A stretch of DNA of 20,000 nucleotides, taken from positions 2,015,087 through 2,035,086 of the forward strand of contig KV454011.1 of the NCBI GenBank assembly GCA_001661245.1. Direction: 5' to 3'. The position numbers and the translations under genes are program-made. The notes beneath the pieces are model-generated. The model made no database searches, was not told the origin of the DNA, and was given only the letters and a program-made list of their open reading frames with translations. Of this stretch, positions 1,963-20,000 are shown in pieces (the first letter of the stretch is position 1; every line of letters starts with the position of its first letter). Source of the DNA: Pachysolen tannophilus NRRL Y-2460. Lineage: Eukaryota.

Positions 1963-4290
1963 TCAAAGGCTGGAATCATCATTACTACTGCCACTTCCAT
2001 CAATACTGCTCAAGCTACTGCTTCCAATACTACTCAAATCAAGTAACATACTGTTATCATCACTGTTTCTATTGCTACTATTTGTAGAATTGCTATTTTT
2101 GTTATTACCACTGCTTAACCCTCCTGCACTATTTGTATTATTTCCTTTTTGCTTCTTGGTAGAGTCTCTTTGTCTTGTTGATGATAAAGTATCAAATACT
2201 ATCACATCTTTATTATTATCACTGAACACATTAGCTTTACTATTATAATTTGCCCTTCTCGATCTTGGAATGGGTGGTATTGGAGGTTTCCGCTTGGTAT
2301 TACTTGCAGCATTGAGTGGAGTTAAAATGCCTTGCTTCTGAGGAAGTTTACTTCCGTCAATTTTTAATCCGACGTTATCATATCTAGTTGAGTTTTTCTT
2401 TGTATAAGTAGTAGTTGATTTAGGAAGTCCTCCTCCAGATCTCACGTTATATGTATCAATACCAGTTTGATCCATATCTTTTTCCTCTGAATCATTAGTA
2501 TGCGAGCTGAAATCTTCTTCATATAACACATCCATCTGCCTAAGAGTAGGTGAGTTTGCATTGGAATTAATTACATCTGATTGACTCGAAGGTGGTGTGT
2601 AATGATCATTATTTTTATAATGATTATTGGCCAACATAGTATCTACCTTTAAACTACTAAGACTGAATTTCTTGGAAGGATTCAGAAGACCCTCATCATT
2701 TCCACCTTCATTCTCTTCATTTTGTAAAATATTTTTTGACAATCCAATAAGTCCAAATTGACTGTCTTCGGATGATCTTCGTGAAGGCATCTGTGGGCGT
2801 AACGGGGATCTATTCTTTGTGTTGGAAATATATTCAAATCCAAAATCTTCTTCGTTTAAATTTGAGCCATACGTTGTATTTGCAGCTCCATTTCCTCTTG
2901 TACCATCATTGTAAATAGATTTTTCATTTAGTTCACTTGAAGAGCCCATCTTATGAGTTGAATTTGATGACACTCCTCCTCCTCCTCCAAATATTCCTAA
3001 AAATGATAATTTTGGATGACTATTTTTATTTGTTTTATTCTTGTTGTTAAATGACAATGGTTTAAAAATACCAATATCAAATATGCTCTTATGAGTTTTT
3101 TCATCCGTGGTGAATGGATTTTCTGGATCTAGTATATTAAAATCATCATCCACTACTACATCTCTACCTGTAGCTGTTGTGGTTACATTATATCTTCTCC
3201 TCTTTGCTTTAACTTTTCTTCTTCTTAAAACCCATAAAAGTAATAATAAAAGGAAAAGTCCAACAACTCCTCCTACAACTCCTCCTGCAATCTTGGGAGT
3301 ACGATCCGTATTGCTACTCTTAGCTGTACTTGAAGTACTAGCAACCCCTGATTCATGGGCTAATACACTTTGGAAATATGAATAATCAGTCACTATTGGG
3401 CTAGCACTATATGATGATGCAGAAGAAGGAGTGGAATATGAATCGTAAGAATATGTCACCACTGTTTCTGTGGGTATATCTGTTGTGAAAGTAGTTGATG
3501 CATCTGTTATTATATACTCCTGTGTATAAGAAACAGTTTCCAGTGTGGTTACATATACATCCAGAGCTGATGACGAAGAACTTGAAGAAGAACTTGAAGA
3601 AGAACTTGAGCTCGAAGAAGAGTCTGTGGAAGTGGATGCGGACGTCGATGATTTGGTTGAAGTTGAAGTTGAAGATGAAGTTGAAGTTGAAGTTGAGGAC
3701 GAAGTGATGCTGGACGATGTGCTTGATGAGGTTTTTGATGAAGATGACGATGCTGTTGATATCTCGGATGTTGAAATTGGGTAAAATGGACTTGCCAATG
3801 CCGCTGAATATGCCGAACTCTCATCCAGACTTCCGTTGGAAGATGCGGTGCTTGAAGTCCGTGTGGAAACTGTCGCTGTTGATGATGATAAGGATGATGA
3901 CGATGTCGATGTCGATGATAATGATGATGTCGATGTAAGTGACAAAGATGACGTCGATGACGTCGATGACGACACACTTATACTACTGGCACCGCTCTCA
4001 TTATCACTACTTTCACTAATCTCACTACTCGTTGATGAAGAAACTCCATTGCTCGTTATAGTGTTCCCGACACTTATACTTGTTTCCACTGCTGATGACA
4101 CACTCTCCGAGTTTGATGGTTCCAGCAAGGCTTGGCTTGAAGTAGTCAAGGAGGAAGAATCAGCAGTGACTGTCAGTGAACTCGATGTCACCGTCGATGA
4201 AGACGCTGTTGACGATTCCGTCGCAGCACTCGAAGACGAATCATCCTCTTCTATATACAGACTTGTTGAAAACGTAGCAGTGTTTTCAAT
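1963..4290 (-). CDS. TDA7: Tda7-like single-pass membrane protein: Ser/Thr-rich ectodomain, one TM helix, long cytosolic tail; start site unresolved
   Basis: Frame open from 4290 to the TGA at 1963. YTQEYIITDASTTFTTDIPT resembles the juxtamembrane block I recall from S. cerevisiae Tda7. TM IAGGVVGGVVGLFLLLLLLWVL (3226-3291) is followed by RRRKVK. Neighbour of NOP13 (YNL175C/YNL176C synteny). No in-frame ATG until 2949. Confidence 0.75.
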   Translation of the reverse strand: MENTATFSTSLYIEEDDSSSSAATESSTASSSTVTSSSLTVTADSSSLTTSSQALLEPSNSESVSSAVETSISVGNTITSNGVSSSTSSEISESSDNESGASSISVSSSTSSTSSLSLTSTSSLSSTSTSSSSLSSSTATVSTRTSSTASSNGSLDESSAYSAALASPFYPISTSEISTASSSSSKTSSSTSSSITSSSTSTSTSSSTSTSTKSSTSASTSTDSSSSSSSSSSSSSSSSSSALDVYVTTLETVSYTQEYIITDASTTFTTDIPTETVVTYSYDSYSTPSSASSYSASPIVTDYSYFQSVLAHESGVASTSSTAKSSNTDRTPKIAGGVVGGVVGLFLLLLLLWVLRRRKVKAKRRRYNVTTTATGRDVVVDDDFNILDPENPFTTDEKTHKSIFDIGIFKPLSFNNKNKTNKNSHPKLSFLGIFGGGGGVSSNSTHKMGSSSELNEKSIYNDGTRGNGAANTTYGSNLNEEDFGFEYISNTKNRSPLRPQMPSRRSSEDSQFGLIGLSKNILQNEENEGGNDEGLLNPSKKFSLSSLKVDTMLANNHYKNNDHYTPPSSQSDVINSNANSPTLRQMDVLYEEDFSSHTNDSEEKDMDQTGIDTYNVRSGGGLPKSTTTYTKKNSTRYDNVGLKIDGSKLPQKQGILTPLNAASNTKRKPPIPPIPRSRRANYNSKANVFSDNNKDVIVFDTLSSTRQRDSTKKQKGNNTNSAGGLSSGNNKNSNSTNSSNRNSDDNSMLLDLSSIGSSSLSSIDGSGSSNDDSSL

Positions 4291-4418
4291 TTATTTTATT
4301 TTATTTTATTATTATTTTTTTTTTTCATTTAAAGGCGCACTAGCTCAGCATATTTTTTATTTTTATTTTTATTTTTATTTTTTTTATTTTTATTTTTTTT
4401 TTTGTCTCTTATGCATAA

Positions 4419-4425
4419 TGTTTAC
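4419..4425 (-). promoter_or_regulatory. Forkhead (Fkh1/2)-type site GTAAACA upstream of the TDA7-like gene
   Basis: TGTTTAC on + strand. The S. cerevisiae TDA7 promoter is annotated as Fkh2-bound. Short motif, so it could occur by chance. Confidence 0.4.
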
Positions 4426-4702
4426 CACAACAAACACATCATCACCTACGACTTAAACAAATACTAAATCAAATAATGAGATCTATGAGTGTATCTGAAT
4501 ATGTTCAGTATTGGTATCTGCTTGTAATGGCCTTAAAAAATTAAGCGCCCTGAATGAATAATCCTGTAATTAGGAAAACTTGATATCTAAACCTTGTAAT
4601 GGCTTGAAAATAATTAAAAAAAGAAATAAGCAAGTCAAAAAAAAAACAAAAGGAAGAAAATAAATGAAAAAAATACTTCTTCAATATCAGTTAAAAATCT
4701 TT

Positions 4703-4830
4703 ATATATATAATGATATATATATATATATATATATAAACTAGTAGCAAAAGCTGATTGGTAAAACGAAGGAATATCTATACATATACATATATATGTAT
4801 ATATATAGATTGAATATATATATATATCTA
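4703..4830. repeat. (TA)n microsatellite cluster
   Basis: Several TATATA runs, e.g. 4715-4737 and ~4779-4827. Similar runs occur near 8091-8119, 9731-9757 and 13636-13659. Confidence 0.85.
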
Positions 4831-5364
4831 TCTTATTTTGTTTAAATAAATTATTGTTATATTATTGTTATTTTATTCAAATATTAAAAGCGCAGAAATT
4901 TAATCTAAAACTTGGGTAGTGTGCGTTTTGACAACTTTCTAAATTAGGAATGTTACAATTTCATCTCGAATTGCACGCCAGGAGAAAACGAGTTCAAAAA
5001 AAAAAATTTGAAGGCGGAAATTTTCTTGGTCAAACGGGCGGGCAGGCAGGCAAGTAGGCACCCAGAGAGACAGACAGATAGAAACAGGTATACGAAACAA
5101 ATTAGTTGTACTAGTTGGACATTTGGCTAGAATAAAAAAAAAGAAATCTTAATAAATCTTAGTAAGTTATGGTGGTCTAGATGATGGTCTAGATGATATA
5201 TATATATTTAGATATAACTAACATATATAATTAAATAAATAAATTTATTTTTTAAAAAAAAAAAAAAAAAAAAAAAAGAAAAGAAAAAAAAATTGGCAAC
5301 CGTATGATTAATGTGATTTATAGGTTTGTTCTATACTGTAGAATTTTCTTAATTTCTTTTTTTT

Positions 5365-8261: not shown

Positions 8262-9158
8262 CTAAACCAAAACCATTTCCTCATTTAATAAATTTCTCTC
8301 AATGACAAATTTATCAATCTTATATTCCTCTCTTTCATTATCTGTCTTAACATATTTCCATCCTAAGTTGTAACCACATTGTTTACAATTCAAATCACAA
8401 ACTTCGTAAGAACCAGTAATCATTTCTTTTTTCTCCAACATTCCCAATTTACAATTAATGATTTTATCCACCAAAAAAGCTGGACCTGATTTACCTCTAA
8501 AGTTATCACTTATAACTAAAGTTGATAAACAAATATGATTATGACAATTTTTACACGTGTACAATGTCTTGATAAAACTATTGCTTCTGCCAATCCCATT
8601 TCCAGAACCATATGGTGGGGACTTAATTGTGGCAATCAGTGCGGCCGCTGCCAGGGCAGATGCTGCAGAACTAGCTGCAGAACTGGCCCCAGAGCTGACC
8701 CCAGAGACGGAACCTGGGACGGAACCTTGAGCGGAAAGCTGGGCGGAACCGTGGGCGGAAACCGCAAAAGCAGAACTCCTACTACTGCCGCCACTTTCTT
8801 CCGCGGAAATAGCGGTTAAAGTACTTGAATCTCTATCCCCATTCGGCATCTCTTCATCTTCATATTCGCCATCAGTGGTATATTCTTTAATCTGATCACA
8901 ACTTCTATTCCGCAGATAAAAAGTAGTGACTATATAACAGTTATTAAGTGTTTTGTACATTTGCTCCACCTTATAAATATTGCTTCTATCTGTAAAATAA
9001 TCATTATCATCATCATCATCATCATCATCTATTAGGGTCTTTGATGACGATGAGCTAAAAGTCCTCTTATCCTTTTTCTTATTCTTATTCTCAATCAATA
9101 TATCGTTTGAAGTACGTAAAGCAGTGGTCTTGAAGCAATCCGGGTATAGCAAGCCCAT
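8262..9158 (-). CDS. MOH1: Yippee-family zinc-binding protein (Moh1-like), 298 aa, with a long N-terminal insertion
   Basis: Starts MGLLY. C-terminal Yippee domain YTCKNCHNHI...ISDNFRGKSGPAFL...MITGSYEVCDLNCKQCGYNLGWKY has two CxxC pairs. Family call is firm; exact orthology to MOH1 is less certain. Confidence 0.8.
   Translation of the reverse strand: MGLLYPDCFKTTALRTSNDILIENKNKKKDKRTFSSSSSKTLIDDDDDDDDNDYFTDRSNIYKVEQMYKTLNNCYIVTTFYLRNRSCDQIKEYTTDGEYEDEEMPNGDRDSSTLTAISAEESGGSSRSSAFAVSAHGSAQLSAQGSVPGSVSGVSSGASSAASSAASALAAAALIATIKSPPYGSGNGIGRSNSFIKTLYTCKNCHNHICLSTLVISDNFRGKSGPAFLVDKIINCKLGMLEKKEMITGSYEVCDLNCKQCGYNLGWKYVKTDNEREEYKIDKFVIERNLLNEEMVLV
8661..8766 (-). repeat. Degenerate GC-rich 12-bp coding minisatellite (Ser/Ala/Gly tetrapeptides)
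   Basis: GGAA(C/A) recurs every 12 nt at 8709, 8721, 8733, 8745 and 8757. GCTGCAGAACT occurs twice 12 nt apart. Encodes SAHG-SAQL-SAQG-SVPG-SVSG-VSSG-ASSA-ASSA. Confidence 0.7.
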
Positions 9159-9647: not shown

Positions 9648-9729
9648 AAATTATAACCGTTTCCATACATTTCTTTACCAGTTAAAAGTAAGATGAATGG
9701 TAAAGCAAACATGTATATAAGTATATAAG

Positions 9730-9761
<32 letters not shown>

Positions 9762-9820
9762 TGGAAATAATTTCAGTTGAAATATTTAGATCTGAGAAGA
9801 TCAATTGAGTTTGTTTGAGC

Positions 9821-10693
9821 ATGAGTTTTACTGTTAATAAGGAAATTGCCACTTTTGGTGGTAAATTGTTGAAACTATCTCATGAGTCCAAGGCTACTAA
9901 TACCAAGATGGATGTTAATGTGTACTTACCGGCTCAATACGAGAACGATCCATCTGCTACTAAGATTCCTGTTTTACTTTATTTATCAGGACTTGAATGT
10001 ACTCCAAATAATGCTTCGGAAAAGGCTTTTTGGCAACCATTTGCTAACAAGTACGGTTTTGCTGTAGTTTTCCCAGACACTTCTCCAAGAGGTGCTAATG
10101 TCGAAGGTGAAGATGAAACTTGGTATTTAGGTACTGCAGCTTCATTCTATGTTGATTCTACAACTTCTAAATGGTCCAAGAATTATAAAATGTACTCATA
10201 TATTAATGATGAATTGCAATCGGAATTGGCAAGTTATTTGACCAAGTTAGATTTCAATAATATTTCGATTTCTGGTCACTCAATGGGTGGTTATGGTGCT
10301 TTAATGATTTTCTTGAAGAATCCTTCAAAATATAAAACAGTTTCTGCTTTTTCACCAGTGGCAAATGTTCATGATAATAAATGGTCCGAATTATGTTTTG
10401 CTAATTATCTCGGTCAAGAAAAATCAAGTTGGGACCAGTACGATATTTTAAAATTGATTAAATCGTATAATGGACCAACACCTGAAATTTTAATCCATCT
10501 TGGTACGAAGGATCCTTTCTTGAATGAATTGAAATCCAAATTGATCTTGGATGCTTCGAAAGGCACAAAATTTGAAGGAAAAGTTGATTACAATTTTGTA
10601 GAAGGTTACGACCATTCTTATTACTATGTTTCTTCGTTTGTTGATGAACATGCTAAACATCATGCAAAGTATTTAGGCTTGGCTGATAACTGA
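9821..10693 (+). CDS. FGH1: S-formylglutathione hydrolase / esterase D (YJL068C/FGH1 family), 290 aa; possible readthrough isoform to 10729
   Basis: First ATG is 9821 (the track started at an upstream TTG). Motifs TFGGKLLKLSH, PDTSPRG, nucleophile GHSMGG, DPFL (Asp) and GYDHSYY (His). Confidence 0.93.
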   Translation: MSFTVNKEIATFGGKLLKLSHESKATNTKMDVNVYLPAQYENDPSATKIPVLLYLSGLECTPNNASEKAFWQPFANKYGFAVVFPDTSPRGANVEGEDETWYLGTAASFYVDSTTSKWSKNYKMYSYINDELQSELASYLTKLDFNNISISGHSMGGYGALMIFLKNPSKYKTVSAFSPVANVHDNKWSELCFANYLGQEKSSWDQYDILKLIKSYNGPTPEILIHLGTKDPFLNELKSKLILDASKGTKFEGKVDYNFVEGYDHSYYYVSSFVDEHAKHHAKYLGLADN

Positions 10694-10803
10694 CTAACAG
10701 CTGCTGATATTCCAATTCCACATCTTTGAAAAATAAATCTACAACCAAAACCACTATATATATGTATTTCGAATTTTTTTTTTTTTTATTGAAAGAATTT
10801 TTG

Positions 10804-13200
10804 TTAAATATTTTCTCCAAAAATAAAAGGAATATCATCTCCATATGTAACTTCTCCAACTCTTGTAACCGTATCAATTCTAACCTTATCACTATTAATG
10901 GAATTTGTTTTAAGCAAATTATTTAAAATATTACCAACCTTTTGATGCTTTTCCTGTTTTTTAAGTAACTCTTTCTTGTAAATTATCCAACTTGGAACTA
11001 CAGTAGCACCTTTGAATTCATCATTAACAAAAATATTCCAATATAGAGGTTCTACTTTATCAATATTACTCTCTTTATTCTCGTTGGCCCATTCGATAAC
11101 TGCGTAGTCTTCAGATCCAAAAGTTTCAATATGCAGGATTTTCTGCACTTTATTTACTTTCAACTGTTCAGGATTCTGCATAGATACTACAGATATATCC
11201 CCAATCAATAAAGAAAATGATTTCTTTTCCTGCTTTCGTTCTTCTTCGTCTTCCTTCTCAGAAAAGTTATCACTTATTACACCATTTGATCTAGATGAAA
11301 CAATCACCCATTCATCATCGACCAAAGGTTCGTCCTCTTTACCCAAGTTTCCAGAAACCAGTGAAAGCTTTCTCAAATCGTCTTCTTCAGTATATGAACT
11401 AGCAAAACTGATATTAACAGACTCTAACATAACATGTTCCACCGATGAGTGGCTTGGTAATGGAAATTTCTTTTCCACAACTTTCCATCCACCATTATAC
11501 TTATTTTCTTTGACGTCACTACTATCCAAGCGTATTGGAAGAACTAATGATCCTTCTTTTGATCTAGTTATAGATCTAACCCTTCTTTCGATAAAATATT
11601 TCACAATAATTTGAAAATAATTTGAATTTGGGTCCAAAGACCCAGAGGGGAAATCTTTGTATTTGTATGAAACTTTAACTTGTAAATTTGAAGAACATTC
11701 TTTGCATATATTGAATAATGGTTTTGGTTGCAGTTGCTTCTGTTGTTGAATGAGCCTATTTATAAGTTGATTCTTGATTAGAAATTGAGTAGCACCCAAG
11801 CTAGAAGAATCTTCAAGTGGTAGATTTACATCTTGAGTAACTTCTAAACATGAACCCGATTGGAATGAATCATCAATATTCTTTGTAATTCTTAAGCTGT
11901 CATTAAGTTGATCCTGCTTGCGATAACAAATCAAAGGTATTTCAAACTGTAAATTTCCGTTACACCAACTTTCATTGAAAATTCTTTTACCATTTTCACT
12001 AAAAAACTTTCCCTGGCCTTCATTAAAACTACTATAAAATAAAAAATCGTTTTTAGTGTTTGGAATTTTATAAACAGTTGAATTTTGAGATTGAATAAAA
12101 GTATTTATGCTCATTTCCTGTGCAGTCAATCCAATCCAAAATTTTATATCCTGTTTTTCAAAATCCAGGGAACCAAAATGTTCGTAAGTCCATGCGGGTG
12201 CAAAAATCCCACAATTGGAAATGTATTTAATGATCCAAGAAAGCGCTATACTTGTCTCAAATCCGCCGTTACTAAATTTCATTCCCCTTCCCCAAACATC
12301 AACTCCAACGTATACATTTTCTTGTGCACCTTTTAAACCCACCAATTCAATATTTTTTGTTAGATGAGTTTGGTCCCACCAATAATTAGTTAGCAAATTA
12401 TCAGATGCTCTATATAAATCATAATTTTCATCGGCGATTCCATTAAAATACTGAACTCTGTTTAACAGCGGCACGTATGCGTCATACCATATCAATTTTG
12501 AGTCTGGGTTTACCAAATGTAATTCGCATTTCAATGAATCAATAAACTTCACAATATCATAAGATAAATTCTTATCAGAAAACCTTGTCTCTATATTGAT
12601 TAGCCATCCATCAAACTTATAAACTTTTACTAATTCAACGAGAATCTTAATATATTTGAAATGAATCCTATCAGAATCTTTAGCAACAAAATCATTACAT
12701 TCATCCAAAGCTTCCAGTGTATTCCCCTCTATAATGACAGTTCCTAGACATCTAATACCGTTTCTATGACACATATTTATCCAACTAACTGGGGGTACAC
12801 TTATTCTATGATGAGAAAAATATACAAAATCGTCAATTAATGATGGAAATTGCAAGAAATATCGTTGCCCTGTCAGATGAGGGAAATACCCCAATGGATT
12901 TAAATCTTCTTTATCCTGATAACCACCTTTGAAATCATGGCAAATCAATAACTTTGGTCTATATTCCAATTGCATAAAATCTCTAGTATTTGCTCTTTCA
13001 TATGCAGCTAACCCATCTTTAGCAATTCTGAATTTATCCAAAGCAGATGTTTTTGTAGTATTATCCTTTCTGTTATCATACCATTCTTGAGCCTTTTTCA
13101 AGTTTGTGAAAAAGATACTAGATAAAGCATCACCATTAACATTGAAAAATTTCTGTTTTCCCTTGGGGTCGTTGACAACTTTTTGGTTCTTTCCAGACAT
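10804..13200 (-). CDS. Cytosolic endo-beta-N-acetylglucosaminidase (glycoside hydrolase family 85), ~798 aa
   Basis: GH85 motifs KLLICHDFKGGY, FVYFSHHRISVPP..WINMCHRNG...LGT, catalytic FDGWLINIE, IWYD, TNYWW, VYVGVDVWGRG and GIFAPAWTYE. First ATG at 13200 (track started at TTG 13350). No signal peptide. Confidence 0.92.
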   Translation of the reverse strand: MSGKNQKVVNDPKGKQKFFNVNGDALSSIFFTNLKKAQEWYDNRKDNTTKTSALDKFRIAKDGLAAYERANTRDFMQLEYRPKLLICHDFKGGYQDKEDLNPLGYFPHLTGQRYFLQFPSLIDDFVYFSHHRISVPPVSWINMCHRNGIRCLGTVIIEGNTLEALDECNDFVAKDSDRIHFKYIKILVELVKVYKFDGWLINIETRFSDKNLSYDIVKFIDSLKCELHLVNPDSKLIWYDAYVPLLNRVQYFNGIADENYDLYRASDNLLTNYWWDQTHLTKNIELVGLKGAQENVYVGVDVWGRGMKFSNGGFETSIALSWIIKYISNCGIFAPAWTYEHFGSLDFEKQDIKFWIGLTAQEMSINTFIQSQNSTVYKIPNTKNDFLFYSSFNEGQGKFFSENGKRIFNESWCNGNLQFEIPLICYRKQDQLNDSLRITKNIDDSFQSGSCLEVTQDVNLPLEDSSSLGATQFLIKNQLINRLIQQQKQLQPKPLFNICKECSSNLQVKVSYKYKDFPSGSLDPNSNYFQIIVKYFIERRVRSITRSKEGSLVLPIRLDSSDVKENKYNGGWKVVEKKFPLPSHSSVEHVMLESVNISFASSYTEEDDLRKLSLVSGNLGKEDEPLVDDEWVIVSSRSNGVISDNFSEKEDEEERKQEKKSFSLLIGDISVVSMQNPEQLKVNKVQKILHIETFGSEDYAVIEWANENKESNIDKVEPLYWNIFVNDEFKGATVVPSWIIYKKELLKKQEKHQKVGNILNNLLKTNSINSDKVRIDTVTRVGEVTYGDDIPFIFGENI

Positions 13201-15550: not shown

Positions 15551-18500
15551 TTATGCTTCTTCTGGAACATCATCATGGAAATATTTTCCCTCAGTAGTTG
15601 GTTTGATTACACCAGTTCTGATCAAGAAATCACCAAAATGTTCACCATCTTGTCTTTCTAAAGACCATTTTTTAAATAATGGTTTCAAAATATCCAAGAT
15701 TTCATCTTCTTTTATAGAAGACCTGTAAAGCTTATTTAAACGTTGTCCATAATAACCTCCTCCTAACATCAAGTTATATGCACCTGGTGCTTTACCAATA
15801 AGTGCAACTTCTGCTAACCAAGGTCTTGAACAACCATTTGGACAACCAGTCATCCTCATAACTATAGAATCATGCTTCAACCCATACTCTTCCAAACTTT
15901 CTTCAAGTTTTGAAATCAATACCGGTAAATAACGTTCTGATTCAGCCATGGCTAAACCACATGTTGGTAATGCTACACATGCTGCCGATGACAATCTTAA
16001 ACCAGAATAATTTGTATTATCCAACTTATATTTGCTCAATAATGATTTAACTCCCGCTAAATCAGTATCTGCAATGTTTGAAATTAACATATGCTGGTTA
16101 CCAGTTAATCTGAATTCACCTTGACCAACTTTAATTAAATAATGAGCAATTTCACGTAACCCTGTTTTATGTGGTAATTCTGGAGTATCTTCAACTCTAC
16201 CATTTTCAATAAAACACGTATAATGATTTAATCCACTTTCATCTTTGATCCAACCAAAATAATCAATGTTTGAATCAATTTCAAATGGAACTGGACGTTC
16301 AAATTTAAAACCCATTAATTCTTCAACTTTTTGCTTGTATACATCAACACCCATATCATCAATAGTATACTTCAATCTAGCATGTTTTCTATTCTTACGG
16401 TCACCAAAATCACGTTGGACTAACATAATTTTTTCACAAGCAATGTGAACTTTATCATAAGGAATAAAACCAAATAAACTACCCGTTCTTGGATAAGTTT
16501 TCTTGTTGTTATGAGTGGTACCCATACCACCACCAACAGTAACGTTATAACCAGTAACAATATTATCTTTATCAACAATGGCAATAAGACCAACATCATG
16601 AGCATAAACATCAACATCATTATAAGGAGGGACAGTAATAACAACTTTGAATTTACGTGGAAGATAAGTAGGACCATAAAGAGGTTCTTGATCAACTAAA
16701 GCATTACCTGAAACTAAAACTTTCTTCTTACGTGGACCATCTTTTCTTGATTCCCAAACTTTAGGATCATTTGGTGAAACATCGTTATCATCAACACCTT
16801 CTAACCAAATTTCATGATATGCTGTTGTTTGAGGAAGTAAATGTTCAGATACAACGTAGGATGTATGTGCAATTTGTTTATGGACTTTAGCATTAGATGG
16901 TAAAGCAGAAACCATTACATTACGGTTAACATCACCACAAGCACCTAAAGTATCCAATAATACAGAATTCATTCCTCTAATAGCAGCTTTTAAATCATGT
17001 TTAACAACACCATGAAGTTGGAATGTAGCTCTGGTGGTAATTTTCATTGTACCATTACCTCTAGTGTCAGCCAATTCATCAATTTTAAGCCATTGCTGAG
17101 GAGTTGCAGCACCACCTGGAAGTCTAAGTCTTGCCATGAAAGCATAAGCTGGCTCGAGACCTTCACTTTTCCTTTCATCTCTAATATCTCTGTCATCTTG
17201 CATATAGATACCGTGGAATTTTGTCAATTGCTGATCGTTCGCTGCAATAGCACCTGTGGATTGATCATTTAATCCTTCAACAATTGTACCTCTAAGATAA
17301 TCAGATGCAATCTTTATATCTTCATTGGTGATTGGAGGTGGTTCATCAACAGAAACAGCACCAGAAACACCCAAGGCTTCCCATAATTTAGGTTCCCATT
17401 CAGCATAACCTGTTTGATAACCGTCAGCATCCTGATCGTCTCCAAGACCCAATGGAGCCAATTCTTGAACTCCCAACAATGATAATCTCTTAGACAAATC
17501 TTTACAAGGCTTATTATAGTAATGTTTATCTTCCTTTCTTGGCCAGTAGGCAGAGTCACCAAGACCAAAAATAGCAACTTTTAAATTTGGAAGATCCAAA
17601 TCTGGTGCATTCTTAATTGCATCCCAAAGGTTCCTTCCGTTTTGTGGGAATTCACCTTGTCCTGCAGTGGAAGTAATGAAAACCAAGTTAGTTTCAATTG
17701 CCAAATCTTCAAGAGTCAAATCATCCATAGCCAAGACAAATGTTTTTAAACCTCTTGCAGCACCACGTTTACCCAATCTTTTGGCCAAAGATTCTGCATT
17801 ACCTCCATCGGAAGCAAATGCGATAGTTAACGGTGGGCCTGTTAAACCCTCCAATAAACTGTCGTAGGCTTCTTTGGCTTTTTGTTTTTGTTTTGTTTTG
17901 ATATCACTAGTTAATGAGTAAGTCAAGTTTCTCGATAATAATGGATCTTTCTTAGTCAATAATGTTAATTTATTTTCTTTGTCCAAGAAATCTTGTAATT
18001 CCTTTTTAATATTTGATGAATCCAATTTGAAAACTTCTTCATTATTGTCTTCATAAGTTGGATTGTATCTGTATAATGGCCAATAACCAGCATCCACGCT
18101 CTTCTTTGTTTCTTGTAAAATCTTTAAACTATCATCATTTTCACTTTCATACGGTAAATAAGCTAATATAATAGATGGACCATCAAAGTTACTTGCTTCA
18201 ACAACCGCTTGCAAGACTTGAGTATACGATGAATATACAGCAACTGAAGCAACATAAACATTACCAAAGTTCATTGCATATAAACCAATGTCCTTTTTCC
18301 TGTATAAGGATTTATTTTTTTTAACAACTTCATAAGGTTCATTATCAAATACAATCATGTTAACATTTTCACCTGATGAAATTAAATGGTGAACACCTGA
18401 TGAACCCAAATCATATGACCAAGAATCTGATCCAACTAACCACGAAGAATTTTTATGGAAGTAATGTTCATATTTCAATAATTGCGATGCAGCATTGGAT

Positions 18501-19962
18501 TCATCTTCTTTTAATAATGCAATGATTTGATCAGCCTTATCAACTGTTTCAGTCTTATCATTCGAACTTACTACCCACTCTGATAATAATTCAACTAACT
18601 CTGCAGCTCTTGGACTTTGAAATTCATTTTCAGTAATTGAAGTTTGAATCAATTTAATCAATTTTTCTCTTTGCTCTTTTTCAAATAAAAATTTACCAAA
18701 TCCAAATTCAGGATTAGTTTCAGTTCCAATATTTTTTAAATTAGAATCAAGTTTATTCAAAATATTCAATTTTGAACCAAAAACTTGTTCTAAAATCTTG
18801 AAATAAGCTAATTCTAATTTGTGAGCGCTGGATATAACTTTTGTTATATCTTTAACAGATTCAACATCCTGTCTTTGACCAACAAACAAATTTTGAACAG
18901 GTTTCGAAGATCTTGAATTTTCTATTAATTTTGAAACTACTTCCAGTGAATTTGTGAAAGAGCCTAATTGTGATGCAACAACTTGTTTAATATTTCTTTC
19001 TTGTAATTTTTCAAAATTATTTAATATATCCAACAACAAATTTTGGAATTGATTTATTTGTAAAGATTGTTCTATTGTTAATAATCTTTTAACTGAGTTT
19101 GGTAAATTTTTCAAAAAATTTTCAAAATTAAAAGGCCTGTAAACTCTAATGTTTAAAATACCTGCATTGAAATTTTGTGCATCTTTTGATAATTTCCAAC
19201 CTGCGTTACCTAAGATAACCAAGACATCTTCTGGATAAGCAGGTCCAATATACTCAAATGATTTATAAGAGTTACCTGTGATTGCTGCAATAGTTTTAAA
19301 ACTTTTTTCAATCAATTCATCAACGTCACCCAGAGTTATTTTATTATTGGTGTTGTACAGATCAGTACCGACATCCACTTTAAAATTTTCAATAAGTTGT
19401 TTAATTTTAGTTTCTTCTAAACAAGTAGTTGTATCAAAATAGTGTATGACTTGATGAATAATTGCTCTAATGGTATACTGGTCCAAAAATGATGCATTTT
19501 TTTCTGTACATGCATCTGATGGTGAAAAAAAATGTAAAACAGGTCTTGATATGGCAGTGGCCAATAAGTATGCTACAATCGACATATCATGGGCTTCAAG
19601 TGCATTATTCGATAACAATATGGTAAATCCTGAATCTTTTAAAGAACTTACATATGAAAACTCATCTTTTGGTAGTTGAGCATGAATAACAATCTTGGAA
19701 TTTTGTAACCCATTCAAATATGGGAGATTGTTGAAAAGTACTTCTGCTGTAGTAGCAAGAGTGAAAATATTATCATCAGAATCCTTTGTTACTTCATCCT
19801 TGACAATCGCCAACGGATCATTTGAATCAATCAAGTTTACAACTTTAATACCCTCATTCGTCAGTGTGACCTCATTAAAATTTTTAGAGAAATCCGAATC
19901 CACTGATTTGGCAGGTTTCGTTGTGAAAACAAGACCACCAACTGCATTTGCAACATGAGCAA
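15551..19962 (-). CDS. MET5: Sulfite reductase (NADPH) beta subunit, 5'-incomplete (large exon; first exon probably beyond the window)
   Basis: PFOR/TPP-like N-terminal region (WLVGSDSWSYDLG, YVASVAVYSSY), flavodoxin domain (ASDGGNAE, TSTAGQGEFP) and NIR/SIR hemoprotein (KFHGIYMQDDRD, ACGDVNRN, YLPRKFK). 4Fe-4S/siroheme ligands CVALPTC and GCPNGC. The frame extends past GTG 19903 to a poly-pyrimidine tract + AAG ending at 19963. Confidence 0.95.
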
Positions 19963-20000
19963 CTTTAAAACAAAAGGAAAAAAAAAAAAAAATTTTAAAA

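What the first reader, a model, noticed from the sequence alone, without database searches (positions are those of the whole stretch)
10691..10729. TGA-CTA readthrough stop on S-formylglutathione hydrolase exposes a hidden PTS1-like tail (-PHL)
Seen: the CDS ends ...GAT AAC TGA CTA ACA GCT GCT GAT ATT CCA ATT CCA CAT CTT TGA. Readthrough would add X-LTAADIPIPHL. The extension uses coding-like codons, and A/T-rich UTR-like sequence follows the second stop. Established: UGA-CUA is a leaky-stop context that makes cryptic peroxisomal isoforms of metabolic enzymes in fungi and animals. PHL fits the relaxed PTS1 pattern [S/A/C/P]-[K/R/H]-L. As I recall, Candida boidinii Fgh1 is split between cytosol and peroxisome. 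Inference: this yeast sends a fraction of its formaldehyde-detoxifying esterase to peroxisomes by programmed readthrough. I do not know of this being described for FGH.
Basis: partly seen in the sequence, partly recalled or inferred. Interest (0 to 1): 0.85.

Follow-up and report, generated by a model that had tools for sequence, protein, structure and literature searches.

The report
Hidden peroxisome tag behind FGH stop
A yeast formaldehyde-detoxifying enzyme gene ends in a leaky stop codon followed in frame by eleven codons that spell a weak peroxisome-import tag, so a small share of the enzyme may enter peroxisomes, but this could not be tested against related yeasts.

Summary
An intact S-formylglutathione hydrolase (FGH) gene (9821-10693, +) ends AAC TGA CTA. 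Eleven in-frame codons (LTAADIPIPHL) and a second TGA follow. A neighbouring gene's product is 100% identical to a Pachysolen tannophilus protein.

In favour:
- UGA-C is the leakiest stop context in S. cerevisiae, and UGA-CU(A) is the published readthrough motif for cryptic PTS1 isoforms.
- TGA-CTA plus a [SACP][KRH]L tail is expected about 2e-5 per TGA gene, or about 0.03 per genome.
- The 33 nt look coding-like: 39% GC against 6-24% after the other seven stops.
- FGH orthologues of related methylotrophs carry constitutive SKL or PKL, and C. boidinii FGH is reported in both cytosol and peroxisomes.

Against or open:
- PHL is a weak tag, and I found no test of it.
- There is no stimulatory hairpin.
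- The nearest FGH relative is only 64% identical, and no yeast DNA could be fetched, so conservation is untested.
- No RNA, ribosome or peptide data were available.

Verdict: a plausible new member of the known readthrough-PTS1 kind (about 0.5). Chance (about 0.33) and a relic tail (about 0.12) remain open.

The parts
9821..10690 (+). S-formylglutathione hydrolase (FGH / esterase D) coding sequence, 290 codons, ending ...YLGLADN. It contains no CTG codon.
   Evidence: ORF list. Pfam PF00756 at E 3.4e-49. TIGR02821 equivalog at 282.4 bits against a 281.7 cutoff. PDB 1PV1 at E 6e-86. S154, D231 and H265 are invariant in a 33-sequence alignment. 0 CTG codons.
10691..10693 (+). First stop codon, TGA. 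The upstream codon is AAC, so A stands at -3 and -2 and C at -1.
   Evidence: Identical in contigs of runs X1 and X2.
10694..10696 (+). CTA directly after the stop. It completes the UGA-CUA leaky context (+4 C, +5 U, +6 A).
   Evidence: Motif from PMC4207609. UGA plus +4 C is the most permissive combination in S. cerevisiae (PMC8087045). 8 of 903 TGA codons in the window are followed by CTA.
10694..10726 (+). In-frame stop-free extension of 11 codons, LTAADIPIPHL. It is 39% GC.
   Evidence: Codon log-likelihood ratio +3.99, in the top 4.2% of 6197 stop-free intergenic 11-codon windows and at the 69th percentile of real coding windows. The first 33 nt after the other 7 stops are 6-24% GC with ratios of -9.9 to +0.2.
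10718..10726 (+). CCA CAT CTT = Pro-His-Leu, the candidate (non-canonical) PTS1 tripeptide.
   Evidence: It fits [SACP][KRH]L. P at -3 occurs naturally in FGH orthologues P0008 (Ogataea haglerorum) and P0084, which end in PKL. I found no direct evidence for PHL itself.
10727..10729 (+). Second in-frame stop, TGA, followed by A.
   Evidence: In the +4 order C > U > A > G of PMC8087045, A is less permissive than C.
10730..10803 (.). AT-rich remainder of the 110-nt space between the convergent FGH and GH85 genes. It holds TATATATAT (10755-10763) and a T14 run (10774-10787). It is the presumed 3'-end-forming region, so the extension probably lies inside the mRNA (inference).
   Evidence: The GH85 ORF 10804-13200 (-) matches PF03644 at E 5.9e-79. 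No significant RNA structure in 10685-10790: minimum free energy -2.1 kcal/mol, z +1.54.

Best explanation
The gene encodes an ordinary, intact cytosolic S-formylglutathione hydrolase. Its stop codon sits in the leakiest context known for budding yeast, UGA followed by C, here the full UGA-CUA. At a low rate, inferred to be of the order of a percent or less, a near-cognate tRNA reads the UGA. Which residue is inserted is recalled from the literature (Trp, Cys or Arg). The ribosome then adds X-LTAADIPIPHL.

The new C-terminus, Pro-His-Leu, would act as a weak type-1 peroxisomal targeting signal bound by Pex5. A small pool of FGH would then enter peroxisomes. There, formaldehyde from peroxisomal oxidases such as methylamine oxidase becomes S-formylglutathione.

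In methylotrophic relatives the same end is reached by a constitutive SKL or PKL on the main ORF. In this lineage the signal would sit behind the stop and be dosed by readthrough.

Shown here: the sequence anatomy, FGH identity, rarity of the combination, coding-like composition, and PTS1 on orthologues.
Inferred only: that readthrough is appreciable in this yeast, that PHL is imported, and that the arrangement is selected.
For: 1. Stop context. TGA-CTA is at 10691-10696. UGA-CU(A) is the core motif that drives cryptic PTS1 isoforms in Ustilago and human cells (PMC4207609, passages). In S. cerevisiae ribosome profiling, UGA followed by C gives the highest readthrough, and such combinations are avoided genome-wide. 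The A at -3, -2, +6 and +9 seen here rank top or joint top in that paper's Table 2 (PMC8087045).

2. Rarity. 8 of 903 TGA codons are followed by CTA. 6 of 2525 stop-to-stop intervals end in [SACP][KRH]L. The only joint case in the window is this one. The Markov simulation gives 0.95% and 0.23%. With 2 of 8 window genes ending in TGA and 5288 predicted proteins (PMC4937558), about 0.03 such genes are expected per genome.

3. Composition. The extension is coding-like, in the top 4.2% of intergenic windows. It is 39% GC against 6-24% for the first 33 nt after the other 7 stops.

4. Family link. Of 119 FGH homologues, 9 end in [SAC][KRH][LM] (eight SKL, one SKM) and 2 end in PKL. The SKL carriers include C. 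boidinii, Kuraishia capsulata, C. arabinofermentans and Ambrosiozyma. On the FGH tree this trait needs at least 9 changes, so it is gained and lost readily.

5. Relatives. The neighbouring MET5 product is 100% identical, over the 701 residues searched, to a Pachysolen tannophilus protein. Its next relatives are Kuraishia (80%), C. boidinii (78%) and Komagataella (76%).

6. Physiology. C. boidinii FGH has a PTS1 and bimodal localisation (PMC1781073). A link between Fgh1 and peroxisomal amine oxidase has been proposed for a non-methylotrophic yeast (PMC5816127).

7. The stop is real. It is identical in contigs of two runs from two studies.
Against: - PHL departs from the classic S/A/C at -3. His at -2 is also a less common choice (recalled). 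I found no passage that tests PHL.
- The upstream residues (ADIPI) include an acidic one and no basic one.
- +5 U, +8 C and -1 C are not the most permissive nucleotides in yeast.
- The G at the fourth nucleotide after the stop codon, noted as enhancing UGA-CUA readthrough, is an A here.
- No RNA structure lies downstream (z +1.54; 193 of 200 shuffles fold at least as well).
- Conservation, the criterion that published screens use to weed out chance PTS1 motifs (PMC4207609), could not be examined. The nearest FGH homologue is 64% identical.
- The tree sister P0022 ends ...YLGLL with no PTS1.
- The two runs show no polymorphism, so they say nothing about constraint.
- The pattern is one that this scan's first-stage reader flags repeatedly in other genomes, so some chance hits are expected across the whole scan.
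- I know of no documented readthrough-derived PTS1 in a budding yeast (recall). The review passages seen name Ustilago, other fungi and animals.
Confidence: 0.5

Rival explanations
1. Coincidence. The 36 nt after the stop are ordinary 3' UTR that happens to be open in frame and to end in Pro-His-Leu. Any readthrough product is a trace by-product with no targeting role.
For: - An 11-codon extension is unremarkable. The other genes have 5 to 40 codons, and the median stop-to-stop interval is 7.
- PHL is non-canonical. With a broad PTS1-like pattern, 68 of 2525 intervals (2.7%) match, and 87 of 903 TGA codons are followed by C. Loosely defined hits are therefore common.
- The first-stage reader flags this pattern in many genomes.
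- There is no hairpin.
- There is no conservation evidence.
- Published screens warn of chance PTS1 motifs (PMC4207609).
Against: - The exact combination is expected about 2e-5 per TGA gene, or about 0.03 per genome. Here it falls on one of the few enzyme families whose relatives carry a PTS1.
- The extension's composition is unlike the start of the other seven 3' UTRs in the window.
Confidence: 0.33
2. Relic. An ancestor had a longer FGH C-terminus, possibly ending in a weak constitutive PTS1. A sense-to-TGA mutation truncated it, and the downstream codons have not yet decayed. The tail is no longer used.
For: - The 33 nt have coding-like codon use and GC content.
- Relatives in the methylotroph group carry a constitutive PTS1 on FGH.
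- The trait is gained and lost often on the tree (at least 9 changes).
Against: - None of the 119 homologues has a tail resembling ADN-x-LTAADIPIPHL. Their PTS1 follows the conserved LGL motif within 1 to 4 residues, against 15 residues here.
- The relic idea does not explain why the new stop is followed by CTA, a rare codon (19 of 438 Leu codons).
- If leakiness were retained by selection, this rival merges with the main explanation.
Confidence: 0.12
3. Alternative splicing rather than readthrough joins the tail to the enzyme. GACTAAC-AG at 10692-10700 resembles a yeast branch point plus 3' splice site.
For: GACTAAC followed by AG overlaps the stop. Cryptic PTS1 by alternative splicing is known in Candida albicans GND1 and Yarrowia MDH2 (reference lists seen).
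Against: - No GT[AG]NGT 5' splice site exists anywhere in 9700-10760.
- The only nearby GTA-type site, GTATTT at 10669, would give a 32-nt intron.
- By my reading, that splice puts the tail out of frame, running into TGA after two codons.
Confidence: 0.02

Closest known systems
Readthrough-derived cryptic PTS1 isoforms: Ustilago maydis Pgk1 and Tpi1, human LDHB and MDH1 (Freitag 2012; Stiebler 2014, PMC4207609; Schueren 2014, PMC4359377)
   Same: A UGA stop is followed by CUA. A short in-frame extension ends in a PTS1-type tripeptide. The gene encodes a soluble metabolic enzyme with a plausible job in both cytosol and peroxisome.
   Different: - The client enzyme (FGH) and the host group (a budding yeast) are not among the examples in the passages I read.
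- The tripeptide PHL is weaker than the published examples, as I recall them.
- The A at the position of the enhancing G differs.
- Neither conservation nor readthrough has been shown here.
Candida (Ogataea) boidinii Fgh1 and other FGH orthologues with a constitutive PTS1
   Same: It is the same enzyme family, 58-64% identical. The C-terminus tolerates a PTS1. C. boidinii shows dual cytosol/peroxisome localisation (PMC1781073; tails).
   Different: There the SKL or PKL is part of the main ORF, 1 to 4 residues after LGL. Here the main ORF ends in ADN, and a tag appears only after the stop.
Komagataella phaffii (Pichia pastoris) and S. cerevisiae FGH
   Same: The main ORF ends shortly after LGL with no PTS1 (P0015; 1PV1 alignment; PMC1781073).
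   Different: What follows their stop codons could not be examined here.

Membership tests
S-formylglutathione hydrolase / esterase D (TIGR02821, PF00756) | Full-length match to the equivalog model above its curated cutoff | tested here: met
   TIGR02821 scores 282.4 bits against a 281.7 cutoff, covering profile positions 5-275 of 275. PF00756 matches at E 3.4e-49. The margin over the cutoff is small.
S-formylglutathione hydrolase / esterase D (TIGR02821, PF00756) | Ser-Asp-His catalytic triad, with Ser in GHSMGG | tested here: met
   G152 H153 S154 M155 G156 G157, D231 and H265 are invariant columns in a 33-sequence yeast alignment. Assigning these residues to the triad rests on my own knowledge of the family.
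S-formylglutathione hydrolase / esterase D (TIGR02821, PF00756) | Hydrolysis of S-formylglutathione | not testable with these tools
   This needs an enzyme assay. The closest solved relative is S. cerevisiae FGH 1PV1/3C6B.
Readthrough-derived cryptic PTS1 isoform | UGA stop followed by CU(A) | tested here: met
   TGA CTA at 10691-10696. Motif definition from PMC4207609.
Readthrough-derived cryptic PTS1 isoform | In-frame stop-free extension ending in a functional PTS1 | tested here: inconclusive
   The extension is open and ends in PHL. PHL fits [SACP][KRH]L but not [SAC][KRH][LM]. PKL occurs naturally on two FGH orthologues. I found no data on PHL. The key paper on the fungal PTS1 consensus is not held.
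Readthrough-derived cryptic PTS1 isoform | Stop context and hidden PTS1 conserved in related species | not testable with these tools
   No whole genome is held. The metagenome scan returned only loci of 45% identity or less. Runs X6 and X7 are not relatives.
Readthrough-derived cryptic PTS1 isoform | Measurable readthrough, and Pex5-dependent import of the extended protein | not testable with these tools
   No RNA run is listed.
FGH with constitutive PTS1 (C. boidinii type) | The main ORF ends in an SKL-type tripeptide | tested here: not met
   The main ORF ends ...YLGLADN.

The most novel reading that the evidence does not exclude
A budding yeast of the CUG-Ala lineage doses peroxisomal import of its formaldehyde-pathway esterase by programmed UGA-CUA readthrough onto a weak Pro-His-Leu signal. 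Its methylotrophic relatives hard-wire SKL or PKL onto the same enzyme. This would be the first readthrough-made PTS1 reported for FGH and, to my knowledge, for any Saccharomycotina gene. It would also show evolution moving a targeting signal across a stop codon to turn full targeting into trace targeting.
Probability: 0.4. Interest if true: 0.6.

Novelty: new member of a known kind. Interest (0 to 1): 0.45.

Why it matters
If real, it extends readthrough-made peroxisomal isoforms to budding yeasts and to the glutathione-dependent formaldehyde pathway. So far they are described for glycolytic and redox enzymes of Ustilago, other fungi and animals.

It would give a clean evolutionary pair: a constitutive SKL or PKL in methylotrophs against a hidden weak tag in a relative that, as I recall, does not grow on methanol. 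That pair could be used to study how cells tune the share of an enzyme sent to peroxisomes.

It would also mean that genome annotations miss a peroxisomal formaldehyde-detoxifying activity that matters for growth on methylated amines.

If it is chance, it is a useful reminder that leaky-stop plus PTS1-like hits need a conservation test.

Tried and rejected
- Whole-genome search: no genome is held for this window.
- DNA of related yeasts: the single metagenome scan, with a 33-sequence yeast FGH alignment, gave 80 loci. All were 38-45% identical to the query and none was a close yeast relative. They were not used further.
- Sequencing runs: 7 runs were listed and no RNA holder was listed. I laid X1, X2, X6 and X7 on the stretch. 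X1 and X2 are identical to the window over 9771-12000. X6 and X7 match only low-complexity DNA and one 50-nt conserved piece. These runs therefore give no data on polymorphism, relatives or transcript ends.
- Earlier findings of this scan: nothing was recorded for this place, this sequence or FGH. Only same-pattern notes from other genomes turned up.
- Stimulatory RNA structure after the stop: none.
- Alternative splicing: rejected.
- tRNA genes: none in the window.
- Literature on PHL as a PTS1: 3 papers were listed, and the one opened showed no PHL in the text held.
- Noetzel et al. 2016 on the fungal PTS1 consensus is not held.
- My recollection that C. boidinii dihydroxyacetone synthase ends in NHL could not be checked. 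The one paper listed holds the terms, but the passage is not in the text held.
- Reading the K. phaffii FGH1 terminator from papers to see its post-stop codons: 5 papers were listed and none was opened.
- Four paper-tool calls failed on term syntax. Two (34, 36) were reworded and re-sent; for I tried other terms or another paper.

Full report
**What is there.** The window is AT-rich yeast DNA (32% GC). ORF 9821-10693 on the + strand encodes a 290-residue protein.
- It matches Pfam Esterase PF00756 at E 3.4e-49.
- It scores 282.4 bits on the NCBIfam equivalog TIGR02821 for S-formylglutathione hydrolase, just above the 281.7 cutoff.
- It matches the solved S. cerevisiae FGH 1PV1 at E 6e-86, aligned up to the conserved C-terminal LGL.
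- The GHSMGG serine, D231 and H265 are invariant in an alignment with 32 yeast homologues. The enzyme looks intact.

The first TGA is at 10691-10693 and the second at 10727-10729. Reading through would add X-LTAADIPIPHL. Only 110 nt separate this stop from the end of a convergent GH85 endo-beta-N-acetylglucosaminidase gene (10804-13200, -). The space after the second stop is AT-rich, with TATATATAT and a T14 run. The extension therefore very probably lies within the transcript. That is an inference; no RNA data were available.

**Which organism.** No whole genome is held. The sulfite reductase beta-subunit gene at the window's right end is 100% identical, over the 701 residues searched, to a protein named Pachysolen tannophilus NRRL Y-2460. 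That protein lies on a contig of the same length as the one carrying the window's FGH. The next hits are Kuraishia capsulata (80%), Candida boidinii (78%) and Komagataella phaffii (76%). Passages of PMC5951914 place Pachysolen, with Nakazawaea and Peterozyma, in the CUG-Ala clade. That clade is a deep branch of Pichiaceae beside the clade holding Kuraishia, Komagataella, Ogataea and Pichia. The altered CUG code does not matter here, because neither the FGH ORF nor the extension contains CTG. I recall that Pachysolen does not grow on methanol; I did not check this.

**Is the stop real and leaky?** Contigs of two runs from two studies cover 9771-12000 with no differing letter, so the TGA is not an assembly error. 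One of the two runs may be the window's own source, and identical sequences say nothing about constraint.

UGA-CU(A) is the short motif shown to drive readthrough-dependent peroxisomal isoforms in Ustilago maydis and human cells. A G after CUA was noted there as enhancing, and here that base is A (PMC4207609, passages). In S. cerevisiae ribosome profiling, UGA with C at +4 gives the highest readthrough, and such combinations are avoided in the genome. In that paper's Table 2:
- The A at -3, -2, +6 and +9 seen here rank top or joint top.
- The +5 U and -1 C are third of four.
- The +8 C is least favourable (PMC8087045).

No RNA structure follows the stop: minimum free energy -2.1 kcal/mol and z +1.54, with 193 of 200 shuffles folding at least as well. 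The context is therefore leaky by sequence alone and has no extra stimulator.

**Is it more than chance?** An open extension of 11 codons is unremarkable; the other seven genes have 5 to 40. The combination is rare.
- Across all six frames of the window, 8 of 903 TGA codons are followed by CTA.
- The only interval with both TGA-CT and the tail is this one.
- A second-order Markov model trained on the window's intergenic DNA, with the extension left out, gives 0.95% for CTA and 0.23% for the tail (400,000 draws).

That is about 2e-5 per TGA-ending gene. With 2 of 8 window genes ending in TGA and 5288 predicted proteins (PMC4937558), about 0.03 such genes are expected per genome. The estimate loosens quickly if the definitions are relaxed: 87 of 903 TGA codons are followed by any C, and 68 of 2525 tails match a broad PTS1-like pattern. 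The first-stage reader evidently looks for this pattern in many genomes. The statistics are therefore suggestive, not decisive.

**Composition of the extension.** Scored with the codon usage of the window's eight genes against intergenic trinucleotide frequencies, the 33 nt reach +3.99.
- That is the top 4.2% of 6197 (overlapping) stop-free intergenic windows.
- It is about the 69th percentile of true coding windows.
- The first 33 nt after the other seven stops score -9.9 to +0.2 and are 6-24% GC, against 39% here.
- Nine of the eleven codons are common ones. The two Leu codons, CTA and CTT, are rare.

This fits a tail that is, or recently was, translated. The sample is small, and this measure is not independent of the tail motif.

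**The family link.** Among the 119 best homologues (all 52-64% identical), 9 end in [SAC][KRH][LM]. Eight end in SKL and one in SKM. The SKL carriers include C. boidinii, Kuraishia capsulata, C. arabinofermentans and Ambrosiozyma monospora. Two more end in PKL (Ogataea haglerorum and P0084), so Pro at -3 is used naturally in this very family. Weaker look-alikes (three SSL, one AKI, one GKL) also occur. The remaining 103 end 0 to a few residues after LGL, including Komagataella phaffii.

On a tree built without the last 12 residues, SKL/SKM/PKL needs at least 9 changes among 120 rows. Many forks are unresolved (54 of 117 are open). The window's protein pairs with the unnamed P0022 (SH-aLRT 97, a long branch), which ends ...YLGLL.

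[quoted passage not shown] A study of Scheffersomyces stipitis links Fgh1 genetically to the peroxisomal amine oxidase Amo1. It cites the dual localisation and gives a rationale for peroxisomal FGH in non-methylotrophs that use methylated amines (PMC5816127). The enzyme's C-terminus clearly tolerates a PTS1, and a peroxisomal pool has repeatedly been favoured in yeasts.

**What could not be done.** The decisive test is conservation of the stop context and hidden tag in relatives. Published screens used exactly this to remove chance PTS1 motifs. It could not be run here.
- The nearest FGH homologue in 5.8 billion proteins is only 64% identical.
- Runs X6 and X7 of the same study are not relatives.
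- The tool that fetches contigs for database proteins is closed.
- Whether PHL is bound by Pex5 is also open. I found no passage on PHL, the main paper on the fungal PTS1 consensus is not held, and no Pex5 sequence was available for a complex prediction.

**Rivals.**
- Alternative splicing. GACTAAC-AG over the stop looks like a branch point plus 3' splice site. There is no GT[AG]NGT donor anywhere in 9700-10760. The nearest GTATTT would make a 32-nt intron and the wrong frame. I reject this rival.
- Relic of a longer ancestral C-terminus. This would explain the coding-like composition. No homologue has a comparable tail, and it does not explain the CTA.
- Pure coincidence. This remains the main rival.

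**Weighing.** For the readthrough-PTS1 reading:
- A full UGA-CUA context.
- A tail matching a 12-tripeptide pattern.
- Coding-like composition.
- A family in which PTS1 recurs.

Against it:
- A weak, untested tripeptide.
- No conservation data.
- No precedent known to me in budding yeasts.

I put a readthrough-made, peroxisome-targeted minor isoform at about 0.5, coincidence at about 0.33, a dead relic at about 0.12 and splicing at about 0.02; the small remainder is left for readings I have not thought of.

**Novelty.** The mechanism is a known kind. A full-text search for S-formylglutathione hydrolase, peroxisom* and readthrough together found one paper holding all three terms, judged unrelated from its title and abstract start (a study of vancomycin nephrotoxicity in human HK-2 cells). 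The review passages on readthrough-derived PTS1 name Pgk1, GAPDH, LDHB, MDH1 and pyrophosphatases, not FGH. Within the library searched, FGH is therefore not described as a readthrough client. If confirmed, it would be a new member of a known kind.

A public Pachysolen proteome (PXD003898; 2817 of 5288 proteins identified; PMC4937558) and the genomes of Nakazawaea and Peterozyma make the claim directly testable without bench work.

Noticed in passing
window 10692-10700: GACTAAC followed directly by AG overlaps the FGH stop codon. It resembles a yeast intron branch point plus 3' splice site. Any TGA-CTA-AC stop context looks like this, so scans for branch points and for leaky stops can cross-react.
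   Followed up: yes
window 9716-9770: A long (TA)n microsatellite lies about 50-100 nt upstream of the FGH start codon. Contigs of both runs X1 and X2 break at it.
   Followed up: no
window 10804-13200 (-): A 798-residue GH85 endo-beta-N-acetylglucosaminidase gene lies convergent with FGH. Only 110 nt separate the two stop codons, so the two 3' ends must overlap or share signals. S. cerevisiae lacks this enzyme family (recalled).
   Followed up: partly
window 8262-9158 (-): A protein with a Yippee/Mis18 domain (PF03226) has a long N-terminal low-complexity part. This includes a run of nine Asp residues and Ser/Ala-rich repeats.
   Followed up: no
window 2950-5364: A 2.4-kb stretch has no ATG-started ORF of 120 residues or more and no tRNA gene. 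Only low-complexity ORFs of 69-91 residues were found. What it holds is unknown.
   Followed up: partly
window 15551-19999 (-): The sulfite reductase beta-subunit (MET5) gene is cut by the window end. It is 80% identical to Kuraishia, whereas FGH reaches only 64% to any homologue. FGH therefore appears to be the more diverged of the two proteins in this lineage.
   Followed up: partly
proteins P0008, P0084, P0039, P0050, P0068, P0056, P0112: FGH orthologues of other yeasts end in non-canonical PTS1-like tripeptides (PKL, SSL, AKI, GKL). This family could serve as a natural catalogue of weak yeast PTS1 variants.
   Followed up: no
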